Assembly: GCA_963827965.1 (NCBI GenBank)
Contig: CAWHCW010000007.1
Location: forward strand, 43,937 to 107,936
Length of the DNA: 64,000 nt
Reading direction: 5' to 3'
Source of the DNA: an uncultured Chloroflexia bacterium
Lineage (GTDB): Bacteria; Chloroflexota; Limnocylindria; Limnocylindrales; CSP1-4
Shown here: one piece after another, positions 18,255 to 53,483 of the stretch
How positions within the stretch are numbered: the stretch's first letter is position 1
Layout of the letters: every line of letters starts with the position of its first letter
Position numbers and translations under genes: made by a program
The notes under the pieces: generated by a model
Told to the model about the DNA's origin: nothing
Seen by the model: only the letters and a program-made list of their open reading frames with translations
Database searches by the model: none

Positions 18255-18266
18255 GCGAGGCGAGAG

Positions 18267-18800: not shown

Positions 18801-19108
18801 GCCACTCCCTGGACGCCTACCTGATCCTCGCCGGGATCCTCTTCGCCATCGGGTCCTTCGGCTTCCTGGCCCGGCGGAACGCGATCAGCATGCTCATGTC
18901 GATCGAGCTGATGCTCAACGCCGTCAACCTTGCCATCGTCGCCTTCGGCGCCTTCGTGCCGGAGCTGAACGCCGACGCCTCGGTGATCGCCCTCATGGTG
19001 ATGGCGGTCGCCGCGGCCGAAGCGACCGCCGGCCTCGCCATCGTCATGGCGATCTACCGCAACCGGCGGACGCCGCTCGTCGACGAGTACGACGCCATGC
19101 GCCAGTAG
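18797..19108 (+). CDS. nuoK: NADH-quinone oxidoreductase subunit K
   Basis: [42 protein letters not shown]...; ATGA overlap with nuoJ. Confidence 0.9.
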
Positions 19109-19133
19109 CCGGCGAGGAGCCCGAGAGACCCGC

Positions 19134-21152: not shown

Positions 21153-21163
21153 GGGAGACGGCG

Positions 21164-22710: not shown

Positions 22711-22723
22711 CGGGAGCCCGACG

Positions 22724-24199: not shown

Positions 24200-24211
24200 C
24201 CCGCGGGGCGA

Positions 24212-25082: not shown

Positions 25083-25815
25083 ATGCTCTCACCGATGCAC
25101 TCCCTCCTCGCCTGGATCCGCGGCCGCCTCCTGCCCGCCCTCGTGACGGCGGCCGGTGTCGCCCTGCTCGTGGCGGGGCTGCTCACCTACCAGGACCCCC
25201 CGGAGGTCGTGGCGGTCGCGCCGTCGCCCGCTCCGTCCGGGCTGGCCACCGAGTCGCCGCTGCCCAGCCTCCTGCCGCTCCCCACGCTGACGCCGCCCGC
25301 GTCCCCGGCCCCGTCGTCCGAGCCCCGGCGCGGCCCGCGTCGCGAGCCGGGTGGTGGTGCCCCTCCTCCGCATCGACCTGCCGGTCGTCAGGCCGCCCGA
25401 CGACCCGAACCACTTCCCCTATTGCGATGTCGCCGAGTACCTCCCCGACCTGAGCCAGCCGGGCAGCCCGGGCACGACGTACCTCTACGCTCACGCCCGC
25501 GAGGGGATGTTCCTGCCGCTGCTCCTCCGGTCGCGGGTCAATGACGGGAGCGCGATGCGCGGGATGCTCGTCCAGGTCTACACCAGCGACGACAGGCTCT
25601 TCCTCTACGAGATCACCAGCGTCCTGCGACACCAGTCGGGAGAGGTCTACAACGAGCCCGAGGAGCAGCTGGTGCTCCAGACCTCGGAAGGTCCCGCGGA
25701 AGGGGCTTCCCGGCTACACCGGCCTCGTGCTCGTCGTCGTCGCCCAGCCGCTCAGCTCGGTCCGGCCGACCACGCCGCGGCCAACCCGATCGCGCAGCCG
25801 GTCGCCTGCCGGTAG
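25083..25815 (+). CDS. sortase-like transpeptidase (class E-like), frameshift near 25350, predicted catalytic Cys replaced by Ser
   Basis: The N-terminal TM plus Pro-rich linker (LLPALVTAAGVALLVAGLL..PSPAPS) is in one frame. The catalytic-domain-like VVPLLRIDLPVV...SQPGSPGTTYLYAHAREGMFLPLL...VNDGSAMRGMLVQVYTSDDRLFLYEITSV...QLVLQTSEGP is in the next frame. TS occupies the TLxTC position. Confidence 0.4.
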
Positions 25816-25822
25816 CCGCCGC

Positions 25823-26852
25823 TCAGATCCAGCGGATGCGGCGCAGCACCAGGGCGAGCCCCACCGCCAGCCCGACGATGCCGAGGGTGACGATCCAGAA
25901 GCCGACCGCCTCGGTGCGGGCGAAGGCCGCGCCCGCCTCGCTCATGCCGAAGATGCCGGCGAAGGCGCCGATCCCGGCCAGGATGACCGTGACGCCGGTC
26001 AGCCGCTTCATGATCAGCGACAGGTTGTTGTTGATCGTCGAGAGGTAGACGTCGAGGGCCGCCGTGACGAGCTCCCGGAACGAGTCGTACTCGTCCGAGA
26101 GGTGGACGGCGTGGTCGTAGATGTCGCGGAAGTAGACGACGTGCTCCGGGTCGATGAACGGGAGCGTCCGGTTCGTCAGCTGGTTGAAGACCTCGCGCTG
26201 CGGCGAGCTGACGTGGCGCAGCTCGACGAGCTGGCGCTTGAGGCCGAACAGCTGCTCCAGGGTGTCGGCCTCCGGCCGGCTCACGATCCGGTCCTCCAGG
26301 TCGTCCACCGCGTCCTCGATCCGGTCGAAGACCGGGTAGTACTCGTCGACGACGTAGTCGAGGAGTGCCCACAGGAGGTAGTCGGTCCCCCGGGCCAGGA
26401 CGGGCCCCACCCCTTCCCGCAGGTGCTGGGCGCGGCGGGGGTCCCAGAACCTGCGCGTGGACCGTCAGGAGGTACGTGCTCCCCAGGACGATGTCGATCT
26501 CGTCGACGATGAGCTCCCGCTCCCAGGCGACGGCGAAGACGACGAGGTGGGCGAAGCCGTCGGTCAGCTCCAGCTTCGGCCGCTGGTTCCGCTCCAGGAT
26601 GTCCTCGGCGATGAGCGGGTGCAGGCCGAGCTCCGCCGCGACGGCCTCGACGAGCGCCGGCGACGGGTCCGTCAGGTCGACCCAGTGGCGGGCGGTCGAC
26701 TTGCTGACCGCGTGTTCGAGCGCCTCGAGCCCCACGAGCGTCCGCTGCTCGCCGTCGCGCCAGTGCTCGACCCGGAGCGACGTCTGCGCCTCGGCGGCGA
26801 GCGCGTCAGAGGGCGATGCCGGGCTCGGATGCGTCGTCGATCCCCGCTCCAT
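25823..26852 (-). CDS. corA: CorA-family magnesium transporter (frameshift near 26400-26470)
   Basis: C-terminal YPVFDRIEDAVDDLEDRI...LTGVTVILAGIGAFAGIFGMSEAGAAF plus two TM helices. The N-terminal soluble domain is in another frame (LVGLEALEHAVSKSTARHWVDLTDPSPA...). Confidence 0.75.
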
Positions 26853-28497
26853 CGCCACCTCCCGCTGCGACCGCGGCGCCGCCGGCCGTCTCGTCGCGGA
26901 GCATACGCGGCCGGGCCCCGAGCGCGACGCCCGCCGGGAACGCCGCGACGGTCACCCCCGCGGCCACCAGGAAGAGGGCGACCATCGTCTCCGCCGCCTT
27001 CCCGGCCGCCCACGCCTCCAGGGCGTCGATGACGAGCGGGTCCCGCAGGGGTCGGTCCGCCAGCGTCGGCCCGACGATCGCCTTGTAGGCGTCCGGCGAC
27101 CCGAAGACCTGGCCGGAGAATCGCTCGATCGCGGTGGAGCCGTAGGCGGTCAGGACCGCGAGCCCCACCGCCATCCCGATCATCCGGGCGACGGTGACGG
27201 TGGCCGACGCCGTCGCCGAAGCGGGCCCGCCCCACCGCCTCGACGGCGGCCGTGCTGCGGGGCGTCACGGTCAGGCCGAAGCCCAGCCCGAAGAGCCCGC
27301 CGGCGGCCGCGACGACCGGGTAGGTCACCTGCGCGTTCCAGGTGCCCATCCAGAGGAGGCCCGCGATCGACGCCCCCAGGCCCAGGGCCGTCACGGCGCG
27401 GAGCGACCAGTGCCGCACGAGCCAGCCCGACGCGAGGGCGCCGACCGCCGTGGCGGCCGCGAGCGACCCGAGGGCCAGGCGCTGGTCGTCGGGACCGCCG
27501 TAGAGGACCCGGTCCACGAAGACGGCCGAGCCGACGATCGCCGTGGCGAAGGCGTAGCCGGTCAGGAGGCTCACGAGGGCCGCCGAGGCGAAGACCCGGT
27601 CGGCGAAGAGCCGCGGGTCGAGGAAGGGTGCCTGCCGCCGCAGGCCGAGGACGATCGCCGCCAGGCCGGCCGCCAGGCCGACCACGATCAGCCCCGCGGA
27701 GACCAGGGCGGGGTCGAGACCGGCCCCTGCGCCGCCCCGGAGCCCTGCGCCGCCCCGGCCCCCTCGCCCAGGAGGGTCACCCCGAGGAGGATCGTCCCCA
27801 GGGCGACCGTGAAGAGGAGCGCGCCGGCGAGGTCGACGCGGGCCTTCGCCCGCGGGGTGTCCCAGCCCGCGGTGGCCGCCCAGCCCAGGGCGAGGGCGGC
27901 GATCCCCATCGGCACGTTGACGTAGAAGACGTAGCGCCACGCCGGGGCCAGGAGGTCCGGCGCGGGGCCGCCGAGGATCCCCAGCCGGATCAGGGCGGCC
28001 TCGGGCCGGATCGCGTCCAGGATGGCCGCCCCCAGGAACGGCCCGGCGGCCATGCCCAGGAACGTCAGCGCCCCGATCACGCCGAGCGCCCGGGGCCGCT
28101 CGTGGCCTTCGAAGAGGTGGGAGGCAGCGGCCGTCGCGACCGGGACGAGGGCACCGCCGCCGACCGCCTGGACGGCGCGCGCGGCGATCAGCTGGTCAAG
28201 CGTCTGGGCCATCCCCGCCAGGAGCGACCCGAGGGTGAAGAAGACGAGCGCGCCGAGGAAGAGGCGGCGGGCCCCCCACAGGTCGGCGAGGCGGCCGGCG
28301 AGGGGCATGGTCCCGACGTAGACGAGGAGGTAGGCGTTGATGATCCAGCTGGCGTGGCGGAGCTCCGTCCAGCTGCCCAGGTCGACGACGATCGCCGGCA
28401 GGGCGACGGCGGTGATCATCAGCTCCAGGCCGGCGAGGAAGACGCCGGTCCCCAGCACGGCAAGGAGGATCAGGGCAACCCGGCGGTCCATGCGCGG
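26806..28497 (-). CDS. MFS transporter (DHA2/EmrB-like), at least 2 frameshifts
   Basis: MDRRVALILLAVLGTGVFLAGLELMITAVALPAIVVDLG...AYLLVYVGTMPLAGRLADLWGARR..., then later TM segments in two other frames ending ...GPTLADRPLRDPLVIDALEAWAAGKAAETMVALFLVAAGV. Confidence 0.6.
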
Positions 28498-28569
28498 AGT
28501 GTAGGGCCGCGCCGGGGGCCGCCATCCGCCGGCCGGTCGGCCCGCGAACGTCGATGCATACTCAGCCCC

Positions 28570-29088
28570 GTGAGCGGCGGCAGCGGGCTCGAGATCGAGC
28601 GCAAGTACCTCCTCGCCGGCGTGCCGGCCGAGGCCGACCTCGTGGCGCTGGGCGCCCGCTCCGTCCGGATCGAGCAGGCCTACCTTCGGGCGGAGGACGA
28701 CTGGGTGCGTCGCGTGCGCCGCATCGACGCCCCGGAGGCCGTCCGATACGTGCTCACCCGCAAGCGCGAGCTGTCGGGAATCGTGCGGCAGGAGCTGGAG
28801 ACCGACCTGACGGCCGAGGAATACGGTCGCCTCCTGGCGGACGCCGACCCGGCGCGGCGGGTGATCCGCAAGACGCGGCAGGTGATCCTCTACGGCCCCT
28901 GGACGCTGGAGCTCGACGTCTTCAGCGAGCCCCCCGGGCTCGTCCTCCTGGAGGTCGAGCTGGACGACGCGGACCAGGTGCCCGAGCTGCCGCCGTCGAT
29001 CGCCGCCCTCGTCGTGCGCGAGGTGAGCACGGAGACGGCCTACCTGAACCATCACCTCGCGCTGCGGGGGACTCCGCCCGTGGCGTGA
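28570..29088 (+). CDS. CYTH-domain (triphosphate tunnel metalloenzyme / class IV adenylate cyclase-like) protein
   Basis: GSGLEIERKYLLAGVPAE...IEQAYL...LTRKRE...ELETDL...LELDVF...GLVLLEVEL. Confidence 0.75.
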   Translation: MSGGSGLEIERKYLLAGVPAEADLVALGARSVRIEQAYLRAEDDWVRRVRRIDAPEAVRYVLTRKRELSGIVRQELETDLTAEEYGRLLADADPARRVIRKTRQVILYGPWTLELDVFSEPPGLVLLEVELDDADQVPELPPSIAALVVREVSTETAYLNHHLALRGTPPVA

Positions 29089-29163
29089 CGACCGGCGCGG
29101 GTCGTCGGGGGGCGGCGTCCTGCCCGCTTGACGCGCCGGACCGCCCGCGGCACCCTCGTCGCG

Positions 29164-29445
29164 ATGACCCCGAAGCCGCGCGACGACCAGGCCGACGACC
29201 TGCCCTCCGCCGAGGCCGCGCGCGCCCGACGGCGCGACCGCGACGCGACCGCCGCCGAACGCTCCGGGATGCGGACCGGGCTGGCCAAGCAGTTCAAGCA
29301 GGTCCTCGACGCCCAGGTGAAGCGCGGCCGCGCCGCAGGCGAGGGAGACGAGGAGCCGCTGCCCGACGGCCGTCCGCCGGGCTCCTCGCGGACGAAGCGC
29401 CGCAAGCGCGGGCAACCCCCCGGCGACACGGCCCCGGAGCCCTGA
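29164..29445 (+). CDS. small hypothetical protein, low complexity (Arg/Asp/Lys-rich)
   Basis: ORF MTPKPRDDQADDLPSAEAARARRRDRDATAAERSGMRTGLAKQFKQVLDAQVKRGRAAGEG... It may be spurious. Confidence 0.2.
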   Translation: MTPKPRDDQADDLPSAEAARARRRDRDATAAERSGMRTGLAKQFKQVLDAQVKRGRAAGEGDEEPLPDGRPPGSSRTKRRKRGQPPGDTAPEP

Positions 29446-29580
29446 CCGCGGGACCGGAACGACCGGGGGATCCTCGTCAGGCGGCCGGCCGTTGGCACGA
29501 AGCCCCCGGTTCGTGCTCACGCAGTGCGTCCGCGCGGGCCACATCGCGCGCCAACCGGGGCCGCAGGCCCGGCCCGCCCC

Positions 29581-29632
29581 TTGACAGGCGCCGGAGCCGG
29601 CGTCTACCATCAACAACGCTTTATATAAACGC
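29581..29632 (+). promoter_or_regulatory. putative sigma70-type promoter (TTGACA-18-TACCAT) with an AT palindrome operator (cgcTTTATATAAAcgc) immediately downstream, upstream of the ArsR-family gene
   Basis: TTGACA at 29581-29586, TACCAT at 29605-29610. The 10-bp perfect palindrome TTTATATAAA at 29621-29630 is the lowest-GC spot in the window. Confidence 0.4.
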
Positions 29633-29635
29633 ACA

Positions 29636-30025
29636 TTGCTGAGCAGCGGCCGTCGACGGCCGGCGCCCCGCCACCCCGATCGGAGCCGCCCCCTGAGCCC
29701 CTCGCCCGCCCGCATCCGCTCCACGATCGCCTCGATCGTCGACCAGCCGGACGACCTTCGCGAGATCCGCATCTTCCACAAGGCGCTCGCGGACGTGAAC
29801 CGCCTCCGCATCGTGCGGCGCCTGGCGGACGGCCCGGCGAGCGTCGGCGACCTCATCGATCACGTGGGGCTCAGCCAGCCCCTGGTCAGCCATCACCTCC
29901 GCCGTCTCCGCGAGGCCGGGCTCGTCGTCAGCCGGCGCGCCGGCCGCGAGACGATCTGCTCCCTCCGGCCGGAGGCCTTCGGCGAGGTCGCCGCCCGCGA
30001 GCGGGCCATCCTGGGGATGACCTGA
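29636..30025 (+). CDS. ArsR-family HTH transcriptional regulator
   Basis: IFHKALADVNRLRIVRRLADGPASVGDLIDHVGLSQPLVSHHLRRLREAGLV. TTG start; the true start may be internal. Confidence 0.7.
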   Translation: MLSSGRRRPAPRHPDRSRPLSPSPARIRSTIASIVDQPDDLREIRIFHKALADVNRLRIVRRLADGPASVGDLIDHVGLSQPLVSHHLRRLREAGLVVSRRAGRETICSLRPEAFGEVAARERAILGMT

Positions 30026-30027
30026 TC

Positions 30028-30762
30028 GTGGCCATCTCGAACGGCACGCGGAGCAGGGTCAAGAAGGCCGGCGAGCCGCTCGCCCTCTTCCTGGGGCGCC
30101 GGGGGCTCACCCCGGACGGGCTCACCCTCATCGGCTTCGGGATCACGGCCGTCGGCGCCGTCCTGCTGGCCAACCAGCTCTGGCTGGCCGGCGGCCTCGT
30201 GGTGTTCGTGGGGGGCGCGTTCGACATGCTCGACGGAACCCTGGCCCGGGCCACGGGACGGGTGAGCCGGCTCGGCGCCTTCATGGATTCCGTCTTCGAC
30301 CGCATGGGTGAGGCGCTCGTCTACGTCGGCCTGATCTGGGGCACGCTCGACCTCGGCCTGTGGCGTCCCGTCGTCCTCGCCGCGGCGGCGATGGCGGCGG
30401 CATTCATGGTCAGCTACACGCGGGCCAAGGCCGAGGGCCTCGGCTTCTCCGCCGGCAGCGGCATGGCCGCCGTCGGCCTCGCCCCGCGCGAGGTCCGGAT
30501 CGTCATCCTGACCCTCGGTCTCGTCGTCGCGGGCATGCTCCCCGGCTTCCCGGAGGACATGGACACGCCCGGCGCCCTGGCCTACCCGCTGTCGGCGCTC
30601 GCGCTCGAGGCCGCGCTCGCGCTGATCGCGATCCTCGGGACGGTCACCGTCGTCCAGAGGATCCTCAACACCCGCGGCCAGGCGCGCCTCCAGGCGCGCG
30701 CGGACGCGATGAACGCGGCTGTCGACGCCACCACCACGGAGGCCGGCGAGCAGACGAGCTGA
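30028..30762 (+). CDS. CDP-alcohol phosphatidyltransferase (phosphatidylinositol-phosphate synthase-like)
   Basis: D-x2-DG-x2-AR...G-x3-D-x3-D motif ([31 protein letters not shown]) in a multi-TM protein. It is adjacent to ino1. Confidence 0.8.
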
Positions 30763-30817
30763 ACGAGCGAATCCACCCCCACCACCCACCAGCAGCAGGA
30801 GTGAGAGCAGACACCAG

Positions 30818-32059
30818 ATGGCCAAGAAGAACGGGAACAACGGCGCGAGCGGCAATGGAGCGAACGCCCCGGAGCGGGCGTGGGCCGGGTCCAGGCGCAA
30901 GGATGGCAAGATCCGCGTCGCCATCGTCGGCGTCGGCAACTGCGCCAGCAGCCTCGTCCAGGGGCGCTACTACTACGAGAACGCGAAGGAGACGGACTTC
31001 GTGCCCGGGCTCATGCACGTGAGCCTGGGCGGCTACCACGTCCGCGACATCGAGTTCGTGGCTGCCTTCGACATCAACAAGACGAAGGTCGGCAAGGACC
31101 TCTCCGAGGCGATCTACGCCCATCCGAACAACACGATCGTCTTCCAGCAGGTCGCCCCCATGGGCGTCACGGTCGATCGCGGGATGACCCACGACGGCCT
31201 TGGCAAGTACCTCAGCCAGATCATCGAGAAGGCGCCCGGCCCCACGGCCGACATCGTCGGGATCCTCAAGGAGCGCGAGGTCGACGTGATGGTCTCCTAC
31301 CTCCCGGTGGGGAGCGAGGAGGCCACGAAGTGGTATGCCGAGCAGGCCCTCAAGGCCGGCGTCGGCTTCGTCAACGCGATCCCGGTCTTCATCGGCCGCG
31401 AGCCGTACTGGCAGCGCCGCTTCGCCGAGGAGGGCCTGCCGGTCATCGGCGACGACATCAAGAGCCAGGTCGGCGCGACGATCAGCCACCGGGTCCTGAC
31501 CCGCCTCTTCATGGATCGCGGCGTCCGCCTGGACCGGACGTACCAGCTCAACTTCGGCGGGAACACGGACTTCCTGAACATGCTCGAGCGCGAGCGCCTC
31601 GAGAGCAAGAAGATCAGCAAGACGAACGCGGTCACCTCGATGCTCGACTACGAGCTCGAGCCCGGCGACGTCCACGTCGGCCCCAGCGACCACGTGCCGT
31701 GGCTCCTCGACCGCAAGTACTGCTACATCGTCATGGAGGGCACGACCTACGGCGACGTGCCCCTGAAGGCCGAGCTCAAGCTCGAGGTCTGGGACAGCCC
31801 CAACAGCGCCGGCGTCATCACCGACGCCATCCGCTGCCTGAAGCTCGGACTCGACCGGGGCCTGAAGGGCACGCTCGTCGCCCCGTCGGCGTACTTCATG
31901 AAGAGCCCGCCGCACCAGCTCCACGATGACATCGCCTACAACCGGGTCGAGGCGTTCATCCGCGGCGACGACAACGAGACCCTGGAGGGGACCGAGAAGC
32001 CGGCCGTGCGCAAGCTCCGGACTCTCGCCAAGGCACCGGCCAGGGTGGCCGCCAGGTGA
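30818..32059 (+). CDS. ino1: myo-inositol-1-phosphate synthase
   Basis: Intact 413 aa ORF: [18 protein letters not shown]...[32 protein letters not shown]...[25 protein letters not shown]. Confidence 0.95.
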
Positions 32060-33162
32060 CATCCGTCCCCGGGGGCCCGGACGGCGCGGCAGCGGCCGCG
32101 TCGCCGGGGACCGAGGCGAAGAACGGCAGCGAGGGGCGTCTGCGGGCGCCCCATCGCCGCCCGGGTGGCGGCCGCCGCGCCCGCGAGAAGGTCGTCGTGA
32201 GCGCCTACCGCGCGGGCTCCTGGATCCTGGGCCGGCTCCCCTTCGGCCCGACCGTCCGGGTCGGCGGCTGGATCGCCGTCGCCGTCTACGCCCTGTGGCC
32301 CCAGAAGCGGCGTCACGTCCGGGCGAACGCCGCCCGGATCCTCGATCTGCCCCCCGGCGACCGCCGGGTCGACGCCCTGGGCCGCGCCGTGTTCCGCAAC
32401 CAGGTTCGCTGGGTGATCGAGGGGATGCACCTGGCCCGAATGTCGCCGGCCCGGCGCCTCGCCCAGTTCGGGGGGCCGGGACCCGACAGGCTCCACGCGA
32501 TCTGGAAGGCATCGAGGGGCGTCATCCTGACGGGTCTCCACATCGGCAACGGAGACGCCGCCGCGGCTGGCATGGCCGGCCGCGGCCTGCCGATCCACAT
32601 CCTCGCCGACGACACCGCGCACGAGGAGCTCTTCGAGCGGTTCAGCGCCCAACGACAGAGCTGGGGCGTGGAGGTCATCCGCTGGCGGAACCTTCGCGAC
32701 GTCTACCGGGTCCTGCGCAACCACGAGATCCTCGGGCTCCTGGTCGACTGGGGCTACCGCCCGGAGGGGCAGGCGGTGCGCTTCCTGGGCGCCTGGACCA
32801 CGCTGCCCACGGGACCGGCCGTCCTGGCCGCCCGGACCGGGGCGACCATCCTTCCCTTCTGGACCATCCGCTGCCCCGACGGAACCTTCCTGGGCGAGGT
32901 CGGGACGCCGATCCAGGTCGCTTCGGGCGAGCCGGCGGAGATCGCCCGGGCGACGCAGGCGATCGCCGAAGCGCTCGAGCCGGCGGTCCGCGAAGCGCCG
33001 GAGCAATGGTGCGTCTTCAAGCCCATGTGGCCCGCCGACCCGGTGGCGGAGGCCTTCCTGGCCGAGCGCGCCCGGGACGACCGCGCCGCCCCCGCGCTGC
33101 CGGGCGACCGCACCGCGGCTGAGGACGACCGGACCGCCGCCGTGCACGGAGCCGCCGGATGA
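32056..33162 (+). CDS. LpxL/HtrB-family lipid acyltransferase (PIM acyltransferase PatA-like)
   Basis: [29 protein letters not shown]...[12 protein letters not shown]...[17 protein letters not shown], typical of the lauroyl/myristoyl acyltransferase family. Confidence 0.7.
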
Positions 33163-34188
33163 CCGTCGCGTCCGCCGACCCGGGGGACCAGGTGCGCGGC
33201 ACCGTCGCGCAGCGCGCCCGGGCGGCCCTCGTGGGCGGCCTCGCCGTCGTGCTCGACCACCTTCCCGCCGCCGTCGTCGACGGGGCGTGCGACGCCGCCG
33301 GCGAGCTCTGGTATCACGCCGCCCCCGGCCGCGCGGCGATCGCCCGCGGCAACCTCGGCCACATCGCGGAGCGACTCGCGGCCGAAGAGCGCGGCAGTGC
33401 CCGGGCTCGCGCCGCGGCGAGCGACCCGGCCGCCCTGGAGCGCCTGGTCCGAGCCGCGTTCCGCCATGCCGTGCGTGGCTACGCCGAGACGCTCAGCTGC
33501 GCCGCGGTCGCCCGCGACGTCCGCCGCCACCTCGTCGTGGACAACCCCGAGGTCGTGGACGCCGCCTTTGCCGCGGGCGGCCCGGCCGTCTTCGCCTCGC
33601 TCCATTTCGGCTCGATGACGGCCGTCGCCTCGATCCTGGGCAGCCGCTCGCGGGTCCCCGTGACGGCGCCGATGGAGACGCTCGTGGACCCCGAGCTCCA
33701 GCGGGTGATGCTGAGGGCCCGGGAGAGCGTCGGCGTCCGGATCGTCGGCCTCGCCGAGGCCCGCCGTGAGCTCCGCGCGGCGCTGGCCCGCGGCGAGGCC
33801 GCCGGGCTCGTCGCCGATCGCGACATCGCCGGGGGCGGGATGCGCGTCCCCCTCTTCGGCCTCCCGGCGTCGCTGCCGATCGGCCCGGCGTACCTGGCCC
33901 TCGACGCCGGGGTGCCGCTTCACGTGGCCGCCGCGCGGCGCTCGACCCGTGACCGCTTCCGGGGCCGGCTCGTCACGCTGCCGCATCCGTCGGCCGACGC
34001 TGCCTCGCCGGGCCCGCGTCGAGGCGCTCCTCGCCGCCACCGCGGCCGCCTTCGAGGACCTGGTGGCCGAGGCGCCGGAGCAGTGGTGGACCGTCTTCTT
34101 CCCGATCTGGGACGACGTGGGCCCGCGTCCCCGGGGTCGCGCGAGCGCGCCCGCCGGGACGCCCCGGCCCGCGGAGCCCACGCCGTGA
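33159..34188 (+). CDS. second LpxL/HtrB-family acyltransferase (frameshift near 34010)
   Basis: VFASLHFGSMTAVASILG...GLVADRDIAGGGMRVPLFGLPASLPIGPAYLALDAGVPLHVAAARR..., then a C-terminal ...EAPEQWWTVFFPIWDD in another frame. Confidence 0.55.
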
Positions 34189-34990
34189 GCTCCCCGGTCC
34201 TCCGCTCGGCTCACGGCCCGGATCCCGCCGCTCCGCACGGCCGGGCCGACCTCCACATCCATACCCTCGCCTCGGACGGCGTCTGCGGCGTCGAGGAGAT
34301 CCTCGCCTTCGCCGTGGAGCAGACGCAGCTCGACGTGATCGCCATCGCCGACCACGAGCGGGTCGACGCGGCGCACGCCGCCCGCGCCATCGCCCGGGCA
34401 CGGGACCTTCCCCTGGAGGTCGTCGTCGGCGAGGAGGTGACCACCCGCGGCGGCCACCTGCTCGCCCTCTTCATCGAGGAGGCGATCCCTCCGCTCCGTT
34501 CGCTGCGGGAATCGATCGGCCTGGTCCACGAGCAGGGTGGCCTCGCGATCCCGGCCCACCCGCTCTTCCCGTACCCGCTCTGCGCCCAGGCCTGGACGCT
34601 CCGGGCCCTGCTGGACGCGAAGGACCCGCGCGTCCGGCCCGACGCCCTGGAGGCATTCAACCCCACCACGTTCGGGCGCCCGGTGCACCGCCGCGTGGTC
34701 GCCTTCGCGGCCGAGCGCGGCCTGGCCGTGGTGGGCAACAGCGACGCCCACGAGGCCGCCGAGCGTGGGGACGGGCTGGACCACGTTCGCTGGCCGGACC
34801 GCCGAGGACGTCCGGGCCGCGATCCTGGCGGGCGCCAGCGGCTGGCACGGGAGCTTCCACGGCACCTCGTCGCAGCTGCCGACGTTCGGGCAGCAGCTCC
34901 GCAAGTACGGCCGCGACGCCCGGGCGGAGATCCTGGGCCGGGCCCGCCGCGACGGGATCGGGCCGCGACCACGGCTATCCCGGCGGCGAC
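34187..34990 (+). CDS. PHP-domain metal-dependent phosphoesterase (frameshift near 34775; stop not resolved)
   Basis: ADLHIHTLASDGVCGVEEILAFAVEQTQLDVIAIADHERVDAA...GGHLLALFIEE...LAIPAHPLFPYP...VVGNSDAHEAAERGDG, the PHP histidine/aspartate motifs. The tail GWTTFAGRTAEDVRAAILAG is in the next frame. Confidence 0.6.
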
Positions 34991-35047
34991 CGGCGGCCGC
35001 CAGCGCTCCAGATGCCGGCCGTCGCTCGGCGGGGAGAGGAGGAGCGG

Positions 35048-36231
35048 CCGTGAAGGTCGGGCTGGTGACGCCCTACGTCTATCCGCTCCCTGGCGGCGTC
35101 AACGACCACGTCGGGCACCTCTACGAGAGCCTCCGCGCCCGCGGCCACGACGTCCGGATCCTGACCGCCAGCCACGGCCTGCAGCGCAGCTCCGAGGGCG
35201 ACGTGATCCGGATCGGCAAGGGCTTCTCCGTGCCGTCCAACGGCTCCGTCGGGACGCTCACCGTCTCTCGCCCGCTACCCGTCGCAGATCCGGGACGTCC
35301 TGGAGCGGGAGCAGTTCGACCTGCTCCACTTCCACGAGCCGTTCGTCCCCTTCCTGACGCTCATGACGCTCGCGCGAATCGCGGAGCGTGAACGTCGCCA
35401 CGTTCCACGCCTTCGCCGGCTACGCCCCCGGCTACCAGCTGGGTGGCCGGATGCTTGGCCCGGTCGCGGCCAACCGGCTCCACGGGCGCATCGCCGTCAG
35501 CGCCGCCGCCCGCCACTTCGCGGACCGCTACCTGCCGGGCGACTACAAGGTCATCCCCAACGGGGTGGATCTGCGTCGCTTCGACCACGCCGTCCCGCTG
35601 GCCCGCTGGCAGGACGGCCACCCGAACATCCTCTTCGTCGGGCGCCTGGAGCCGCGCAAGGGCCTGGTGCACCTCCTGAAGGCGTTCCGGATGGTCCGCA
35701 AGGCAGGCTGCGACTGCCGCCTTCTCGTCGTCGGCTCCGGGCCCCTGGAGCGCGAGGCGCGGCGCTACGTCATGACCCGCCGCCTCGGCGGCGTCGAGTT
35801 CCTGGGGCGCGTCTCGGACCAGGAGAAGGTCCAGCTCTTCAAGACCGCCGACGTCTACGTCTCGCCGGCGACCGGGCGCGAGAGCTTCGGGATCGTCCTG
35901 CTCGAGGCGATGGCGGCCGGGACGGCCATCGTCTGCAGCGACATCCACGGCTACAAGGGCGTCGTGAAGCGCGGCGAGCAGGCCCTCCTCGTGCCGCCCG
36001 GCGACCATCGCCAGCTCGCCGAGGCCATCCTCCGCCTCGTCGGCGACGCGGACGCTGCGGGCGCGCATGGCGGCGAGCGGCCTGGTCCGCGTCCAGGAGT
36101 TCGGCTGGGACCGGATCGCGGCCCGCGTGGAGGCCTACTACGGGTTCGTCATCCGCCGCCTCGCGGCCCAGGGGGCGCTCCCGGCCCACTATGCCGCCGA
36201 CGTGCCCGCGGACCCGCGCCTGCCCGGCTGA
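35048..36231 (+). CDS. GT4 glycosyltransferase, PimA-like (phosphatidylinositol mannosyltransferase), 3 frameshifts
   Basis: VKVGLVTPYVYPLPGGVNDHVGHLYESLRARGHDVRIL..., then ...FDLLHFHEPFVPFLTLM..., then ...FVGRLEPRKGLVHLLKAF...SPATGRESFGIVLLEAMAAGTAIV..., then ...RVQEFGWDRIAARVEAYY. A good RBS (ggagaggagga) precedes the GTG. Confidence 0.75.
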
Positions 36232-36246
36232 GCCGCTCCGCGGCGG

Positions 36247-39200
36247 TCAGGCCGCGGCGGCGCCCGGATCGCAGTCGTCGTCCTCCGCCCTGCGCTCGGC
36301 GAGGGCCAGCCGCCAGACCCAGGCGGAGTAGGCCACGAAGCCCGCCGCCAGCATCACGGCAGCGAAGAGGAGCACCGGCCACGGGCCCAGGAGCGAGACG
36401 CTCACCGGCGGGTCGACGTTGACGGGGAACTGGAAGGGGTAGAGCCAGGTCGGCAGCAGGCCCTGGTACCAGTTGTAGACGGCGCTGGGCAAGGGCAGGC
36501 CGGACACGTTCGGGTAGAAGAGCACGAAGACGAAGCAGGCCGCCAGGACGAGGCCCACCGCGAAGCGCCGCGGCGAGGCCGCCCGCACGACGACCCAGGC
36601 GAGGGGACCCAGGATCCCGAGGAGGAGCAGGGCAAGGAGCTCGCCGGGCACGCCGCCGGTCTCCACGAGCGGCGTCGCGGGCAGGAGGAGGGCGGCGGCG
36701 GCGAGCGCCGCGACCCCGCCCCCGAGGGTGAGCCAGATCCGGACGATGGCCGGGTGCGCCTCGGTCGGCAGCCGCCCCGCGGCGCGATCGCCCGATCGAC
36801 GTCCAGGAGCTGCCAGACGAGGGCGATCCCGGCGACGGCGATGACGGCGATCAGGCCGACGGCCTGCAGGGTGAGGGCGATCGGCAGCGCCGCCGGCTGC
36901 GTGCAGGCCTGGGATCCCGGGTTGGCGCGTTCCACGTCGACGACGGCGCAGAGCGGCCCCCGGAAGAGCCAGAGCGCCACCGGCCCCAGCACGGCGCCCG
37001 CGGCGGCGGCCCGGACGAGGAGCCACGTCCGGCGCGACGGACCGTGCCAGATCTCGGCCACGAAGTAGGCCAGGGCGAGGAGCACGAAGGGCAGCGCCGT
37101 GTAGTAGTGGTACTGGAACGCCGCCCGGTCGATTCGCGCCCAGGGCAGCCACAGCGACGGCGAACATGATTCCCAACAGGGCGAGGGCCAGGCTGCGCCG
37201 GCGGAAGGCCTGCCACGCCACGAACGCCAGGGCGGGAATCGAGAGCCACCAGGTCAGCCAGGTTGCCGGCGTCGTAGATGGCCCCGACGGTGCCGCCGGC
37301 GAAGCTCTCCTGGTAGAACCAGACCGGCTTCAGGTTGGCTGGCCAGGCCCACCAGGGCGAGGCAGCGGCGTGCGTCGCCCGCAGGTCGTTGTGGTAGTCG
37401 TACATGTCGACGAGTCAGGTCGAGCAGCGTCTGCCCGTCGTGGCCCGGCGGCCAGCCGGGAACGATCTGGTTCCCGAGGTCGGCCCACGGCAGGTACGAG
37501 ACGACGTAGACGACGACCGGGATCGCGAGCAGGCAGAGCGCCGCCCAGGCGATCGGCAGGCCGGCCAGCCAGCCCGGGCGCAGCCAGCCCGGCGGCGCCG
37601 GATCGGCGGGCTCGAGCAGGGTCGCCGGGTCGTCCGGCGCCGGCAGCGGGGCGAGCGGCCCGAGGCCCAGGCGTCCGGCGAGCCAGAACGCCCCGGCGGC
37701 CGCGCCGCCGAGCGCCATCAGCCCGACCGCGGCGGCCTGCGCGAGCGGGCCCAGGCCCAGCGGACATGGAGGCCAGGCCCAGCAGGGCTCCCGCCGACGG
37801 CCGGCCCGCCGACGGCGATCCGGATCTCCTCCACGGTCCAGGCCACGGGATGGAGGACGGCCACCGCCGACGCGACCAGGGTCAGGGCGACCATGAGGAG
37901 CAGGAAGAGCAGGTTGCCGCCGGTCGTCGCCTCGGGGCCGGTGGAGATGGCCATGTAGCCGAGGGTCGCCGCGATCGCCGCCAGGCCGACCACGATGAGG
38001 GCCCGCCCCAGGGCCGAGCGGAGCAGGATCAGGAGCCCGATGCCGCCGATCGCGTACAGGGCAACCCACTTCGAGGCAAGGGCCAGCCCGAGGAGGATCC
38101 CGATGACGGGCAGGCCCACCCAGAAGGCGCCCGCCAGCGCCATGCGCCGGTCCAGATCGTGGCGAAGAGCGTCACGGCCGCGACGATGAAGAGCGCCACG
38201 TAGGCGTCGTTCATCGCGATCCGCGATTGGGCGAAGAGCATCCCGTCGGCCAGGACGAAGAGGCCCGCCAGGACGGCCACCGCCCGGCGCCGGAAGAGGA
38301 TCCGGGCCAGGAGGTAGAGCAGGCCCGCCATCAGGGCGCCGGCGAGGACGCCGGGAAGGCGCCAGGCGAAGGCGTTCTGGCCCATGTCCACCGCCGCGCC
38401 GGCCCCGTCCGCGGCGAAGAGGAGGAGCTGCTGGCGGTCGCTGCTGGGATAGGCCGTCGCGGTGTCCACGGCCCAGGCGGCCGGGGCGAAGGGAAGGACG
38501 GCGTCGGCGAAGACGGAGTTGCCGCGCGGCTCGACGACGTAGACGGTCGTGGCGGCGCCGTCCGCCGTCCGGCCCAGGGCGTGGACCAGCTGGCTCGCGT
38601 CGTTGAACGCCACGCGCTCCACGGCCCCCGGCATCCAGACGGTCCGCTGGAGCGAGGCCGCCTTGTCGCTCGTGGGCATCTTCACGACGGCGAGGGTGCT
38701 CCCGCTGGCGACGTAGAGCGTCGGCGCCTCGAGGCCCTCCACGGCGACGAGGCTCGTCGCGGCGGCCTCGAGCGGCACGCTCCCCGTGGCGCGCCCCGAG
38801 GCGGGCTCCAGGAAGGTGACGCCGGCCGCGCCGGCGACGGCCACCTGCGGCACCTGCTGGACGGCCAGCCCGGCCAGCCGGCCGTCCGCGATCGCCGCGT
38901 CGATCCCGGCGATGGTCGCGTCGATCGCCTCGCGGTCGGCTCCGAGGTCCGCCGTCACGATGACGCTGGGCGCATCGCGGGCCAGCAGATCGCGGTACGT
39001 CGCCTCGTCGCCGCCGGTCAGGCCGGCGACGACGGCGGCGGCGGCGGCGGGATCGGGCACCTCGGCCGGCGTGGCGACGAGCGCGTCGACACGTCCGGCG
39101 TCCGCCACGTCGGCGCGCCCGTCGATGGTGGTTCGCGAGAGCTCGGCCGCGGTCGCCGCGTCGAGGGTCACGAGGCCGTCGTCCGGCGTTCCCGCGACCA

Positions 39201-39941
39201 GGTAGTCGCCCACCGCCCACCGCCCAGAGCCGCTCGACGGGCGCCCCGACCGTGGCGAAGGCGATCGGCGCATGGTCGGCGGCGGCGGCGCGCAGGTCGT
39301 CCGCCGTGACCTCCGTCGCAAAGGCCAGGATCGTGCCGTCCTCCGTCCCGACGTAGGCCTCGCGGGCCACGCGATCCACCGCGACCGCCCGGGCGCCGGG
39401 CACCGCGAAGCGGGCCAGGAGGGCGCGCGTCCGCAGGTCGTACAGATCCAGGGAGTCGCCCGTCACGACGTAGAGGCGCTCGCCGCCGCGCGTCATGGCC
39501 CCCGGCTCGGACTCCTCCGTGACGTCCCAGCGCGGCTCGATCGCCGCGTCCCGGACCGCCGTCCCGAGGTCGCTCTCGGCGACGACCCGGTTGTTCCCGA
39601 AGAAGTCGATCCCCTCGGCGATCGCGTACTTGGCGAGGTGGGGATGGGTGTACTCGTAGATCCCGTGCGGGCTCGCCGTAGCGCCAGTCCTGGAGGAACT
39701 CGATCGCCGTCCGGGCGTGGTAGACCTCGTCGAAGTGCATCCGCATCGGCTCGCCGAGACGGAACGTCCGCAGGCAGAGCGCCGCCACGACCAGGACCAG
39801 CAGGAACCAGAGGTCGAGGCGGTCGAGGCGCCCGCCGCCCTCGCGGGCGAGCGAGGCGGTGCGGTCGAAGGGGAAGGGCGGCGGCGCGTCCGGGGCGTCG
39901 TGCGCGGATCGCGCGATGGCTCCCGCTGCGGCGCCCGGCAT
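36247..39941 (-). CDS. large PMT/GT39-family (protein O-mannosyltransferase-like) membrane glycosyltransferase with a central soluble repeat region; heavily frameshifted
   Basis: PMT signature LDLWFLLVLVVAALCLRTFRLGEPMRMHFDEVYHARTAIEFL (about 39700), then HGIYEYTHPHLAKYAIAEGIDFFG, many TM segments down to 36247 (..WYQGLLPTWLYPFQFP..), and a beta-strand-rich middle segment. The pieces are spread over all three minus frames. Confidence 0.45.
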
Positions 39942-39949
39942 GGCGCCCG

Positions 39950-41520
39950 AGGCGGCGGCATGGCGAGGGGCGGCGGCGCCACGCGCCCCGGGCCGCGTCC
40001 GGCGGCCGTCGGCGCGACGCGCGCCGGCGATCCCGGCGCTCGGTGGATGGCGGGTGGCCGCGCTCCCGCCGGGTCGCCCCCGCGAGGCGCGGCCGGATCC
40101 TCCTCGTCGTCGATCGGCGTCGATCGGTCCGTCGTCGAGCTCGCGGTCGGTCTCCCCGGCCACCGGCCGGACCAGGAAGGCCGCGGCCGCGACCAGGCCG
40201 CCGGCGTGGGCGAGGGCGGCGACCCAGACGCCCGCCTGCGAGCGGATCGCCTCCCCGAGCCGCGTGCCCGAGCCCCCCGAAGGCATCGAGCATCGGCGCG
40301 AGACCCGGGTTGTCGTAGAACGGCAGGGTCAGGATCCCGTAGAGGTTCGCGAAGTTGGCGGCCGCGAGGATCGCGTAGACCACCGCCCAGCGCGGCCGGA
40401 GGACCAGCAGGATCGCCCCGAGGGCGAAGAACGGGTAGAGGTAGCGCTCGTGGACGCGCGTGGGGATCACGAAGAAGGCGATGGCCATGACGGTCAGGGC
40501 CACCAGGAGCGCCCGCCGGTCGTCGTGGCGACGCCACAGGACGACCATGAGGCCGATGATCGCGACGCCGATGAGGGCCCCGCCGATGAGGACCGCCGGG
40601 ATGCCCAGGGGGGCCAGGAACGGATCGGTCGGGCGTGCCGGGTCGAGCACGTCGCGGATCCACGTCCCGGCCGACGCCAGCCCGGAGCCGTCGAGCGAGA
40701 CGAGGGCCCATGGGTTGTAGGCGTTCACCGTGGCGTACGGATAGCCGCCGGCGGTCGAGAGGATCTGGCCGAGGAGGCTGTTCTCGAACGGGATCCCCAG
40801 CGAAGGGGAGGGGCACGATCGCCAGGCCGAACGGGAGGCAGACGAGCGTCGCGGCCAGGATCCCGGCGATCGTCGTGGTGAGGATCCGGATGGGCCCGCC
40901 ACCCAGCGGGCCGCCGTCATCCGGCCGCTCGACCAGGTGGCGGCGGACGATCACGACGGCGGCGAGGGGGATCAGGATCCCGAACTGGGGCTTGATGATG
41001 GCGGCGATCGTGGTCAGGATCGCGGCCCGCTCGGACCTCCCCCGCCACAGCTCCCGGACGGCCAGCAGCAGGAAGAGCGTCCCGACGGAATCCACCTGGG
41101 CCCAGACGGCGCTGTCGAACCAGGTGATGGGCACGAGCAGGAAGACGGCCGCGGCGGCGATCGCGCCCCGGCGGGTCGCGCCGAGCTCGGCGGCCAGGGC
41201 GAAGATGGCCAGGGCCAGGGCCAGGTCGGCGACGATCGCGGGCAGCTTGAGGAGGTCGCCGATGGGGACCGCAAGCGCCTGGGAGACGAGCCCCAGCCCC
41301 CACAGGACGTAGAGGTAGCCCGGCGTGTAGTCGACGAAGATCTCGCGGTCGTAGAGGCCCCACGGCCCGTTCTTGGCGAGCTCCATCGCCCACCCGGAGA
41401 AGCTGCCGAGGTCCACCTCGAACCCGGAGCCGGGCAGGAGAACGTATGCGATGATGAGGCGGAGGGCGAGGCCGAGCGCAAGAAGGACGCCGAGCGGAAC
41501 GACGGCGTCCCGCATGCGAA
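39950..41520 (-). CDS. GT-C fold integral membrane glycosyltransferase (possibly fused to the downstream PMT-like gene)
   Basis: MRDAVVPLGVLLALGLALRLIIAYVLL...FEVDLGSFSGWAMEL...YTPGYLYVLWGLG...AIIKPQFGILIPL, then ...TRVHERYLYPFFALG... in another frame. No stop was resolved before the PMT-like region. Confidence 0.4.
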
Positions 41521-41612
41521 CCCGGGCCTGCTCGCCGGCCCGCGCGCTCTCGCCCGCTGCGGGGCCTGGCACGGGTTGTTGGTTCGGCCTCCCTGGAACG
41601 AGCGCTGAGGTG

Positions 41613-53482: not shown

Positions 53483-53483
53483 C

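What the first reader, a model, noticed from the sequence alone, without database searches (positions are those of the whole stretch)
34187..34990. PHP-domain phosphoesterase inside the PI cluster as a candidate PIP phosphatase
Bacterial and archaeal PI synthesis goes through phosphatidylinositol-phosphate made from inositol-1-phosphate and CDP-DAG. It needs a dephosphorylation step, and the enzyme for that step is poorly defined. A PHP-family metal-dependent phosphoesterase sits between the PIP-synthase/ino1/acyltransferase genes and pimA. It appears translationally linked to pimA, with a strong RBS for the pimA GTG inside its 3-prime end. Position and chemistry fit the missing phosphatase.
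Basis: inference. Interest (0 to 1): 0.6.

Follow-up and report, generated by a model that had tools for sequence, protein, structure and literature searches.

The report
PHP phosphatase inside PI-mannoside lipid operon
A metal-dependent phosphatase gene of the PHP family sits in the phosphatidylinositol-mannoside operon of a Chloroflexota genome and stays next to the PIP-synthase genes in many differently arranged Chloroflexota clusters, so it is the best available, still untested, candidate for the missing enzyme that converts phosphatidylinositol-phosphate into phosphatidylinositol in these bacteria.

Summary
The gene is real. It runs from GTG 34185 to TGA 35053 (+) and encodes 288 aa once two 1-nt insertions (about 34759, and 34957) are removed. 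Intact 288-aa relatives are up to 97% identical.

It has a PHP fold with all canonical metal ligands and a PHP_C module. It is not a TrpH/RNase AM, histidinol-phosphatase or PolX-type PHP.

Its start overlaps the stop of the upstream acyltransferase (GTGA). Its stop overlaps the pimA start (GTGA). That second overlap is kept in 74 of 80 Limnocylindria species.

- All 80 genome loci keep HTH-PIPS-INO1-AT-AT-PHP-PimA.
- Among 80 metagenome loci of distant homologues (about 35-45% identity), 63 carry PI genes beside the PHP.
- These loci show at least five gene orders, including a minimal HTH-PHP-PIPS unit.

Dephosphorylation of PIP is the only pathway step without a gene in these clusters. The literature searched knows one bacterial PIP phosphatase, the unrelated PgpA-type BT_1525. 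The mycobacterial enzyme is still called "long-sought".

Verdict: a well-supported, biochemically untested candidate PIP phosphatase. It may be a new, non-homologous solution for a known step. So far it is seen only in Chloroflexota.

The parts
29636..30025 (+). ArsR-family HTH regulator, first gene of the cluster
   Evidence: Pfam HTH_5 63.6 bits. The same gene precedes PIPS in the Limnocylindria loci that reach that far, and it precedes PHP in the HTH-PHP-PIPS loci.
30028..30762 (+). CDP-alcohol phosphatidyltransferase of the PIP-synthase / archaetidylinositol-phosphate-synthase type
   Evidence: Pfam CDP-OH_P_transf. The best NCBIfam matches are AIP synthase (135 bits) and PIP synthase (122 bits), both below their equivalog cut-offs. 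The orthologue in L001 hits the PDB PIP synthases 5d92, 6h53 and 6wm5.
30818..32059 (+). myo-inositol-3-phosphate synthase (INO1)
   Evidence: Pfam Inos-1-P_synth 116 bits. NCBIfam TIGR03450 inositol-3-phosphate synthase 524 bits, below the curated cut-off of 638.
32056..33162 (+). PatA-like (HtrB/LpxL-family) acyltransferase 1
   Evidence: Pfam Lip_A_acyltrans 103.7 bits. The best NCBIfam match is phosphatidylinositol mannoside acyltransferase PRK07920 at 135 bits, below the cut-off of 209.
33159..34188 (+). PatA-like acyltransferase 2; one frame change near 33998-34000; stop TGA 34186-34188 overlaps the PHP start
   Evidence: Pfam Lip_A_acyltrans 69 bits. tblastn with the L001 orthologue splits into frames 3 and 1. 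Sequence read.
34185..35053 (+). PHP + PHP_C metal-dependent phosphoesterase, 288 aa after removal of two 1-nt insertions (about 34759 and 34957); the candidate PIP phosphatase
35031..35044 (+). Shine-Dalgarno-like purine run (GGGGAGAGGAGGAG) for pimA, inside the PHP 3' end
   Evidence: Sequence read; conserved in L002-L004.
35050..36231 (+). pimA (GT4 phosphatidylinositol alpha-mannosyltransferase); GTG start overlaps the PHP stop; three frame changes in the window
   Evidence: Pfam GT4/GT1. The L001 orthologue scores 210 bits over residues 1-365 to PimA structures 2gej/4n9w; the next-best family scores 78 bits. Frame changes; stop read.

Best explanation
The gene encodes a cytoplasmic, metal-dependent phosphomonoesterase with a PHP (beta/alpha)7-barrel and a trinuclear metal site. 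I propose that it removes the inositol-ring phosphate from phosphatidylinositol-phosphate, the product of the PIP synthase encoded upstream in the same operon. That would give phosphatidylinositol, which the PimA encoded immediately downstream then mannosylates and the two PatA-like acyltransferases acylate.

Shown:
- The gene is real.
- The protein is a PHP protein with an intact catalytic site.
- It lies in the operon, with start/stop overlaps on both sides.
- The family is linked to PIP-synthase genes across Chloroflexota.

Inferred:
- The substrate (PIP).
- The order of steps (dephosphorylation before mannosylation).
- A role for the cationic C-terminal extension in holding the enzyme at the anionic membrane surface.
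For: (1) Pathway gap. The cluster encodes INO1, a PIP-synthase-type transferase, two PIM-type acyltransferases and a PimA orthologue. No other phosphatase was seen in the clusters annotated gene by gene. PIP to PI is the only step with no gene.

(2) Catalytic competence. H24 (nearly invariant), H26, D31, H57, E84, H91, H125, D187 and H189, plus E156, are invariant or nearly so in 86 members. The model has pLDDT 93.2 and pTM 0.91, and its best PDB matches are PHP phosphoesterases.

(3) Linkage that survives rearrangement:
- HTH-PIPS-INO1-AT-AT-PHP-PimA in 80 of 80 Limnocylindria species loci.
- INO1-AT-AT-PHP-PimA-PIPS in Dormibacteria-type and other loci.
- PIPS-INO1-AT-PimA-AT-PHP in a low-GC lineage, GC 29% in L099.
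- A bare HTH-PHP-PIPS unit between unrelated genes.
- PimA-PHP with inverted acyltransferases.
- Overall, 63 of 80 metagenome loci have PI genes. Of the 20 loci with at least 3 kb on both sides, 17 have PI genes and 14 have PIPS.
- In a rough NJ tree, PI-linked members are spread over the whole family.

(4) Coupling. The PHP stop overlaps the pimA start by 4 nt in 74 of 80 species. The PHP start overlaps the acyltransferase stop.

(5) Selection. Between Limnocylindria orders, PHP is 62-68% identical, which is more conserved than PIPS (47-60%) or the acyltransferases (45-50%).

(6) Location. There is no hydrophobic segment (maximum KD19 of 1.07), so the protein is cytoplasmic like PimA. The tail after residue 222 has a median net charge of +6 on a core of -6 across the family.

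(7) The step is an acknowledged gap outside Bacteroidetes (PMC9246714; bioRxiv 10.64898/2026.07.15.738315).
Against: - There are no biochemical or genetic data.
- Every characterised PHP enzyme I know of acts on soluble substrates, nucleic acids or proteins, none on a membrane lipid (own knowledge). The literature searches found none.
- The association is confined, as far as named sequences show, to one phylum. Part of it therefore reflects shared ancestry.
- Some family members lie outside PI clusters: P0149, L137, L141, L165 and the GT2-fusion clade.
- The hydrophobic moment of the tail is no higher than that of the core, so membrane binding is only weakly suggested. A cationic tail could also bind nucleic acid.
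- The reverse question, whether all PIPS-bearing Chloroflexota have this PHP, could not be tested.
Confidence: 0.6

Rival explanations
1. It is a soluble inositol-monophosphate phosphatase. It would dephosphorylate the INO1 product to free myo-inositol, and the CDP-alcohol transferase would be a eukaryote-type PI synthase using free inositol.
For: This also explains a phosphatase sitting next to INO1 and the transferase. The protein has no membrane segment. The transferases score just below the curated PIP/AIP-synthase cut-offs, so their acceptor is not proven.
Against: The transferases of all cluster types match only the three inositol-phosphate-using families (AIP synthase, PIP synthase, BT_1523-type) at 122-168 bits, and PgsA/PssA at less than 45 bits. 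Their PDB matches are bacterial PIP synthases. The characterised bacterial and archaeal enzymes of this group use inositol phosphate (PMC4634129, PMC9246714). An IMPase in the same operon would compete with such a synthase for its substrate. In the HTH-PHP-PIPS unit the PHP pairs with the transferase, not with INO1.
Confidence: 0.12
2. It serves the same glycolipid pathway through a different reaction. Examples: removing the phosphate only after mannosylation or acylation (PIM-phosphate); acting as a phosphodiesterase that turns over or edits PI/PIM or CDP-DAG; or dephosphorylating a polyprenyl-phosphate-linked intermediate.
For: PHP enzymes include diesterases (PMC11656708, listed; RNase AM). 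One diverged clade is fused to, or lies beside, GT2/GT4 glycosyltransferases and a DedA/VTT gene. The tight coupling is to pimA.
Against: The minimal HTH-PHP-PIPS unit has no glycosyltransferase or acyltransferase. A degradative diesterase in a biosynthetic operon is hard to rationalise. PIP to PI would still lack an enzyme.
Confidence: 0.15
3. It is a housekeeping nucleotide or RNA phosphoesterase of the TrpH/RNase AM or pAp-phosphatase kind that merely travels with the PI operon.
For: JGI annotates the family as 'predicted metal-dependent phosphoesterase TrpH'. The N-terminal 70 residues align to RNase AM (9etk, 7ug9). The tail is cationic.
Against: NCBIfam RNase RNM scores 55 bits against a cut-off of 375, and nucleoside-bisphosphate phosphatase scores 35 against 400. 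In the HMMER alignment, query residues 88-102 correspond to chain residues 70-168 of RNase AM, so the roughly 100-residue insertion of TrpH-type enzymes is absent. The best whole-chain structural match is the short uncharacterised TM0559 (TM 0.73 on the target). Linkage to PIPS through five gene orders is not expected for a hitch-hiker.
Confidence: 0.05
4. In this particular genome the gene, and the whole PI/PMT region, is a decaying pseudogene set, so the two frameshifts are real.
For: There are at least 17 frame changes between 25.8 and 41.6 kb. The nuo genes at 10.9-24.2 kb, dnaA and yidC read as single ORFs.
Against: After correction the protein is 97% identical to an intact 288-aa protein and has no stop codons or other lesions. 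GC3 stays at 0.9-1.0 in the corrected frame. Many relatives come from long-read MAG assemblies, and several database entries of the same family carry similar frameshift read-throughs. Other genes outside the region also look truncated, for example dnaN, where only domains 1-2 are in frame.
Confidence: 0.07

Closest known systems
BT_1525 (PIPPh) of Bacteroides thetaiotaomicron, the only bacterial PIP-DAG phosphatase identified genetically (Heaver et al. 2022, PMC9246714)
   Same: The reaction proposed is the same (PIP-DAG to PI-DAG). The logic is also the same: a phosphatase gene inside a cluster with MIPS and a PIP synthase.
   Different: BT_1525 belongs to the PgpA (phosphatidylglycerophosphatase A) family. 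The window protein gives only a PHP_C hit in Pfam, so the two are not related by that test. BT_1525 has knockout and lipidomics support; this protein has none.
TrpH/YciV RNase AM and Cv1693-type 3',5'-nucleoside bisphosphate phosphatases (COG0613; PDB 7ug9, 9etk, 2yb1)
   Same: PHP barrel, the same metal-ligand motifs, and the closest characterised sequence relatives.
   Different: The window protein lacks the roughly 100-residue insertion. It scores far below the equivalog cut-offs. It carries a PHP_C module plus a cationic C-terminal extension. Its genomic context is lipid synthesis.
TM0559 (PDB 2anu) and BVU_3505 (3e38), uncharacterised PHP/PHP_C proteins; NCBIfam CehA/McbA metallohydrolase domain
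   Same: These are the best structural matches: Foldseek E 1e-11 to 1e-10, TM 0.73 normalised on TM0559. CehA_McbA is the best-scoring NCBIfam model at 71 bits.
   Different: They have no known function, so nothing can be transferred. The score is below the cut-off of 80. They lack the conserved FGRQLRKYGRD...GRDLGYPGG tail of the Limnocylindria proteins.
Mycobacterial PI/PIM operon (Rv2613c-pgsA1-patA-pimA-Rv2609c) and the proposed mycobacterial PIP phosphatase EphE (bioRxiv 10.64898/2026.07.15.738315)
   Same: The same core of PIP synthase, PatA-type acyltransferase and PimA, and the same missing step. In both cases the candidate was found by association with PimA.
   Different: The mycobacterial operon has no PHP gene (own knowledge). 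EphE is an alpha/beta-hydrolase-fold protein. Both candidates lack biochemical proof.
Histidinol-phosphate phosphatase (HisK) and PolX-associated PHP domains
   Same: The same superfamily and the same phosphomonoesterase chemistry on a trinuclear metal site.
   Different: NCBIfam scores are 15 and 17 bits against cut-offs of 117 and 426. Foldseek TM is only 0.37-0.40 to 2yxo.

Membership tests
PHP superfamily (polymerase and histidinol phosphatase fold) | Conserved His/Asp/Glu metal ligands: HxH, D, H, E, H, H, DxH | tested here: met
   H26, H57, E84, H125, D187 and H189 are invariant. H24, D31 and H91 are at least 90% conserved in 86 sequences. All are present in the corrected window protein.
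PHP superfamily (polymerase and histidinol phosphatase fold) | Distorted (beta/alpha)7 barrel fold | tested here: met
   The AF2 model has pLDDT 93.2 with alternating strand/helix elements. All 39 Foldseek PDB matches with E <= 0.001 are PHP proteins.
Pfam PHP_C (PF13263, PHP-associated) | Score above the Pfam gathering threshold | tested here: met
   49.6 bits against 21.3, residues 168-217. Precomputed PF13263 appears on nearly all relatives.
Pfam PHP (PF02811) | Score above the Pfam gathering threshold | tested here: inconclusive
   There is no hit at E <= 0.01 for the window protein. Many relatives carry PF02811.
TrpH / RNase AM (RNase RNM) and 3',5'-nucleoside bisphosphate phosphatase | NCBIfam equivalog score, and the insertion domain between barrel strands 3 and 4 | tested here: not met
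   55.4 bits against 375, and 34.8 against 400; only residues 21-88 match. The roughly 100-residue insertion of 9etk/7ug9 is absent.
Histidinol-phosphate phosphatase (HisK-type PHP) | NCBIfam/TIGRFAM-level match | tested here: not met
   15.4 bits against 117. Foldseek to 2yxo gives E 4e-4 and TM 0.37.
PolX-associated PHP | PolX polymerase domain plus a PHP match | tested here: not met
   17 bits against 426. The protein is 288 aa with no polymerase domain.
CehA/McbA family metallohydrolase (NCBIfam NF038032 domain) | Score above the curated cut-off of 80 bits | tested here: not met
   71.3 bits for the window protein and 61-74 bits for cluster-linked relatives. These scores are close but below the cut-off.
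PgpA-type PIP phosphatase (BT_1525 family) | Homology to the PgpA family | tested here: not met
   The Pfam scan of the protein returns only PHP_C. A direct comparison with the BT_1525 sequence was not run.
PIP (phosphatidylinositol-phosphate) phosphatase, as a functional class | Hydrolysis of PIP-DAG to PI-DAG; PIP accumulation when the gene is lost | not testable with these tools
   Only indirect evidence is available: operon position, conserved linkage to PIPS, and an intact phosphoesterase site.
Bacterial PI/PIM biosynthetic gene cluster | PIP synthase, PimA orthologue and PatA-type acyltransferase in one co-directional cluster | tested here: met

The most novel reading that the evidence does not exclude
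The PHP_C-type PHP proteins of Chloroflexota form a phylum-wide family of lipid PIP phosphatases. They would be the first PHP-fold enzymes known to act on a membrane phospholipid. They would also be a non-homologous replacement for the PgpA-type enzyme of Bacteroides. Being translationally coupled to PimA, they could hand PI directly to mannosylation. A diverged sub-clade fused to GT2 enzymes might do an analogous dephosphorylation in another glycolipid pathway.
Probability: 0.5. Interest if true: 0.7.

Novelty: new variant of a known kind. Interest (0 to 1): 0.6.

Why it matters
Bacteria and archaea make phosphatidylinositol through a phosphorylated intermediate. The phosphatase that finishes the job is known only in Bacteroides. 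In mycobacteria it was still called "long-sought" in a July 2026 preprint.

A conserved, operon-embedded, soluble and easily expressed 288-aa candidate would:
- make the step directly testable in a second phylum;
- add a new substrate class to the PHP superfamily;
- give a functional annotation to thousands of "TrpH-like / PHP-associated" proteins in soil and freshwater Chloroflexota;
- indicate that Limnocylindria, Dormibacteria and related groups probably make PIM-type glycolipids like those of Actinomycetota.

It does not solve the mycobacterial problem. No homologue was shown there.

Tried and rejected
- Reading the ORF as printed. The 732-aa ORF 33159-35357 and the 284-aa ORF 34537-35391 are frameshift read-throughs. 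They fuse the acyltransferase, PHP and pimA artificially.
- A natural PHP-PimA or acyltransferase-PHP fusion. The long database proteins P0132, P0233, P0143 and P0262 give no domain hits or only partial ones, and look like the same kind of read-through artefact. Only P0238 (PHP-GT2) looks like a true fusion.
- Looking for an actinobacterial clade through the stray homologue P0149. Its relatives are again Limnocylindria.
- Using the hydrophobic moment of the C-terminal tail as evidence for an amphipathic membrane anchor. It is not higher than in the core; only the charge asymmetry holds.
- A fold search against AFDB50 for named organisms. The library was not available.
- An Rfam scan of the window for taxonomy. 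There were no hits.
- Literature searches for a PHP-PI link, and for PI lipids in Limnocylindria. Nothing was found.
- Not done: a reverse survey (PIPS to PHP), a search for homologues in Actinomycetota or Archaea, and a full scan of the window for PgpA, PAP2, HAD or IMPase genes. Of the roughly 28 larger ORFs scanned, the only other phosphatase is a GlpX fructose-bisphosphatase at 3771-4754.
Full report
**The gene.** The window is 73% G+C. At the reported site, a GTG at 34185 overlaps the TGA stop (34186-34188) of the upstream acyltransferase. From there the third-position GC signal runs at 0.9-1.0 in one frame to about 34750, moves to the next frame until about 34920, then moves again. A TGA at 35051-35053 overlaps the GTG (35050) of the next gene. 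I joined the three frame segments into a 288-aa protein.

A search of 5.8 billion proteins returned many intact proteins of exactly 288 aa covering 100% of that protein at up to 97% identity. The alignment confirmed both junctions. DNA alignment with three relatives shows that the window carries two extra single bases, one at about 34759 and an A at 34957. None of the relatives has either.

Neighbouring genes are broken in the same way: CorA, MFS, the second acyltransferase, pimA (three times) and the PMT-like gene. In the close relative L001 all of these genes are intact and overlap each other by 4 nt. I therefore treat the frameshifts as assembly errors. The gene is 34185-35053, not 34187-34990.

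**The protein family.** Pfam finds the PHP-associated module PHP_C (49.6 bits, E 2.9e-13). It does not find the PHP model itself, although many relatives reach it. NCBIfam's best model is the CehA/McbA metallohydrolase domain at 71 bits, just under its cut-off of 80. RNase RNM (RNase AM, TrpH), nucleoside-bisphosphate phosphatase, PolX and histidinol-phosphatase models score 55, 35, 17 and 15 bits against cut-offs of 375, 400, 426 and 117, and they match only the first barrel strands. Against PDB sequences, the N-terminal 70 residues align to RNase AM. The segment that is about 100 residues long in RNase AM is only about 14 residues here.

In an alignment of 86 family members, H26, H57, E84, H125, E156, D187 and H189 are invariant. 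H24, D31, H91 and N159 are at least 90% conserved. By my own knowledge of PHP enzymes, this is the full ligand set of the trinuclear PHP site.

An AlphaFold2 model of the 97%-identical P0001 has pLDDT 93.2 and pTM 0.91. Its best PDB matches are the uncharacterised PHP proteins BVU_3505 and TM0559 (TM 0.73 on TM0559), followed by RNase AM, PsfC, BAD_1165 and Cv1693. Histidinol phosphatase is a weak match. The protein has no hydrophobic segment. After residue 222 it carries a long helix and an extension. Across the family that extension has a median net charge of +6 on a core of -6, but its hydrophobic moment is unremarkable. In Limnocylindria the tail holds a strongly conserved FGRQLRKYGRD...GRDLGYPGG.RRP motif.

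**The neighbourhood.** The genes upstream are, in order:
- an ArsR-type regulator;
- a CDP-alcohol transferase whose best matches are archaetidylinositol-phosphate and phosphatidylinositol-phosphate synthases;
- inositol-3-phosphate synthase;
- two HtrB-family acyltransferases whose best match is the PIM acyltransferase.

Downstream is a GT4 enzyme. Its intact orthologue scores 210 bits over its full length to the PimA structures 2gej and 4n9w; the next family scores 78 bits. The transferase orthologue hits the PIP-synthase structures 5d92, 6h53 and 6wm5. This is a true PI/PIM cluster, and the only reaction in it without a gene is PIP to PI.

The purine run GGGGAGAGGAGGAG at 35031-35044 lies inside the PHP 3' end, 5 nt before the pimA GTG.

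**Organism and synteny.** All named close relatives are Chloroflexota of the class Limnocylindria. A scan of one genome per GTDB species gave at least 459 relatives. The best 80 loci (62-92% identity) all keep the acyltransferase-PHP-pimA core, and wherever the contig reaches far enough they keep HTH-PIPS-INO1-AT-AT-PHP-PimA-PMT. In 74 of these 80 loci the PHP stop overlaps the pimA start by 4 nt. Because even unrelated flanking genes (CorA, MFS) are syntenic, this block alone mostly shows shared ancestry. It does show that PHP is conserved (62-68% between orders) more strongly than PIPS (47-60%) or the acyltransferases (45-50%).

**Independent arrangements.**
- A Candidatus Limnocylindrus homologue (50% identity) has the same six-gene core with entirely different flanks.
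- A 49%-identical homologue has a DUF2238 gene inserted between PHP and pimA, again with different flanks.

I then scanned metagenome contigs with a profile of the more distant members, which are 29-42% identical to P0001 and lack the Limnocylindria tail. Of 80 loci, 63 have at least one PI-cluster gene next to the PHP. Of the 20 loci with at least 3 kb on both sides, 17 have PI genes and 14 have the PIP synthase. The gene orders differ:
- INO1-AT-AT-PHP-PimA-PIPS. This includes a cluster whose members NCBI names Candidatus Dormibacteraeota, and a MAG locus annotated gene by gene.
- PIPS-INO1-AT-PimA-AT-PHP, in a low-GC lineage (GC 29% in L099).
- PimA-PHP followed by two inverted acyltransferases.
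- A bare HTH-PHP-PIPS unit in nine loci of about 50% G+C. It sits between unrelated genes (PD-(D/E)XK nuclease or RecX on one side, an NYN-domain protein on the other). In one locus a transposase has inserted between PHP and PIPS.

In every type, the transferase best matches the three inositol-phosphate-using synthase families. Named members of this wider set are Anaerolineae, Dehalococcoidia and unclassified Chloroflexota. In a rough neighbour-joining tree, PI-linked proteins occupy all major branches. Most unlinked members fall into one clade that contains a PHP-GT2 fusion. One unlinked member lies beside a PIG-L/LmbE-family deacetylase.

**Literature.** Heaver et al. [quoted passage not shown] They showed that loss of BT_1525, a PgpA-family protein, makes B. 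thetaiotaomicron accumulate PIP-DAG (PMC9246714). A July 2026 preprint still calls the mycobacterial enzyme the "long-sought PIP phosphatase". It proposes the alpha/beta-hydrolase EphE and notes that biochemical evidence is lacking. Searches combining PHP with phosphatidylinositol, Limnocylindria with phosphatidylinositol, and PHP family with lipid found nothing relevant.

**Interpretation.** Its hypothesis passes the test it proposed and survives the refutation it named. The most likely function is hydrolysis of the ring phosphate of PIP at the cytoplasmic membrane face, between PIP synthase and PimA. I put this at about 0.6. The rivals are:
- a soluble inositol-monophosphatase feeding a PI synthase (0.12);
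- another phosphoesterase step in the same glycolipid pathway (0.15);
- a hitch-hiking nucleotide or RNA phosphoesterase (0.05);
- and, separately, real pseudogenisation in this genome (0.07).

The main weaknesses are that there is no experiment, that no PHP enzyme is known to act on a lipid, that the association is seen in only one phylum, and that the reverse survey is missing.

**Novelty.** The fold and the operon type are known, and the reaction has a known but unrelated enzyme in Bacteroides. A PHP-family PIP phosphatase would be a new, non-homologous variant of a known step. I found no published mention of it.

Noticed in passing
window 25800-41600 versus 10900-24200 and 51600-56650: Frame changes are dense in the CorA-MFS-PI cluster-PMT region: at least 17 in about 16 kb, across seven of the genes compared. 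The nuo genes, dnaA, yidC and jag read as single ORFs. Both indels in the PHP gene are 1-nt insertions, and the second one creates a GATC. The cause of the uneven indel density is unknown; local assembly or base-calling problems and real decay are both possible.
   Followed up: partly
window 50266-52958 (-) and 54288-56649 (+): dnaN (only domains 1-2 in frame) and dnaA lie on the minus strand. yidC and jag/khpB lie on the plus strand. The chromosomal replication-origin region therefore lies about 17 kb from the PI cluster.
   Followed up: no
window 36283-41600 (-), 44067-45506 (+); L001 12047-20867: Convergent with pimA are a giant PMT/PMT_4TMC GT-C protein (1231 aa in L001, 2048 aa in L084) and a 485-aa protein. 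Further on come a TMEM260_N protein and a GT2. In the loci that reach that far, the PMT and 485-aa genes were detected downstream of pimA in Limnocylindria. The set may elongate a lipomannan-like glycolipid or O-mannosylate proteins.
   Followed up: partly
L082 6336-7079 (-): In Candidatus Limnocylindrus a NUDIX hydrolase gene follows pimA in convergent orientation. This recalls the Nudix gene Rv2609c next to pimA in M. tuberculosis (own knowledge).
   Followed up: no
L168 6033-6797 (-): One MAG with the INO1-AT-AT-PHP-PimA-PIPS order has a second PHP gene, divergent from INO1. It is of the histidinol-phosphatase-domain type (PRK06361, 280 bits, above its cut-off). It is a possible inositol-phosphate-related paralogue.
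   Followed up: no
L087 4558-6273 (protein P0238): A true fusion of PHP+PHP_C with a GT2 glycosyltransferase lies next to a GT4 gene and a DedA/VTT-domain gene. In the rough tree it groups with the family members that are not in PI clusters.
   Followed up: partly
L165 6403-9530: A family member outside any PI cluster lies between a PIG-L/LmbE-family deacetylase and an Acyl_transf_3 membrane acyltransferase. PIG-L-family enzymes include GlcNAc-inositol deacetylases, so an inositol link cannot be excluded.
   Followed up: no
L025, L044, L080; proteins P0023, P0298, P0492: Several NCBI MAG records are labelled Verrucomicrobiia, Sulfomarinibacteraceae, Patescibacteria or Saccharimonadales, yet the loci checked (L025, L044, L080) carry the Limnocylindria-type PI cluster at 61-69% identity. 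These are probably mis-binned contigs.
   Followed up: no
proteins P0129-P0270: Many 50%-identity cluster representatives of this family are themselves frameshift read-through products, such as acyltransferase-PHP or PHP-PimA chimeras with Arg/Pro-rich garbage tails. The public protein collections hold many artefactual proteins from high-GC long-read MAGs.
   Followed up: partly
window 3771-4754 (+): A GlpX-type class II fructose-1,6-bisphosphatase is the only other phosphatase seen among the roughly 28 window ORFs scanned. It is 30 kb from the PI cluster and not linked to it.
   Followed up: no
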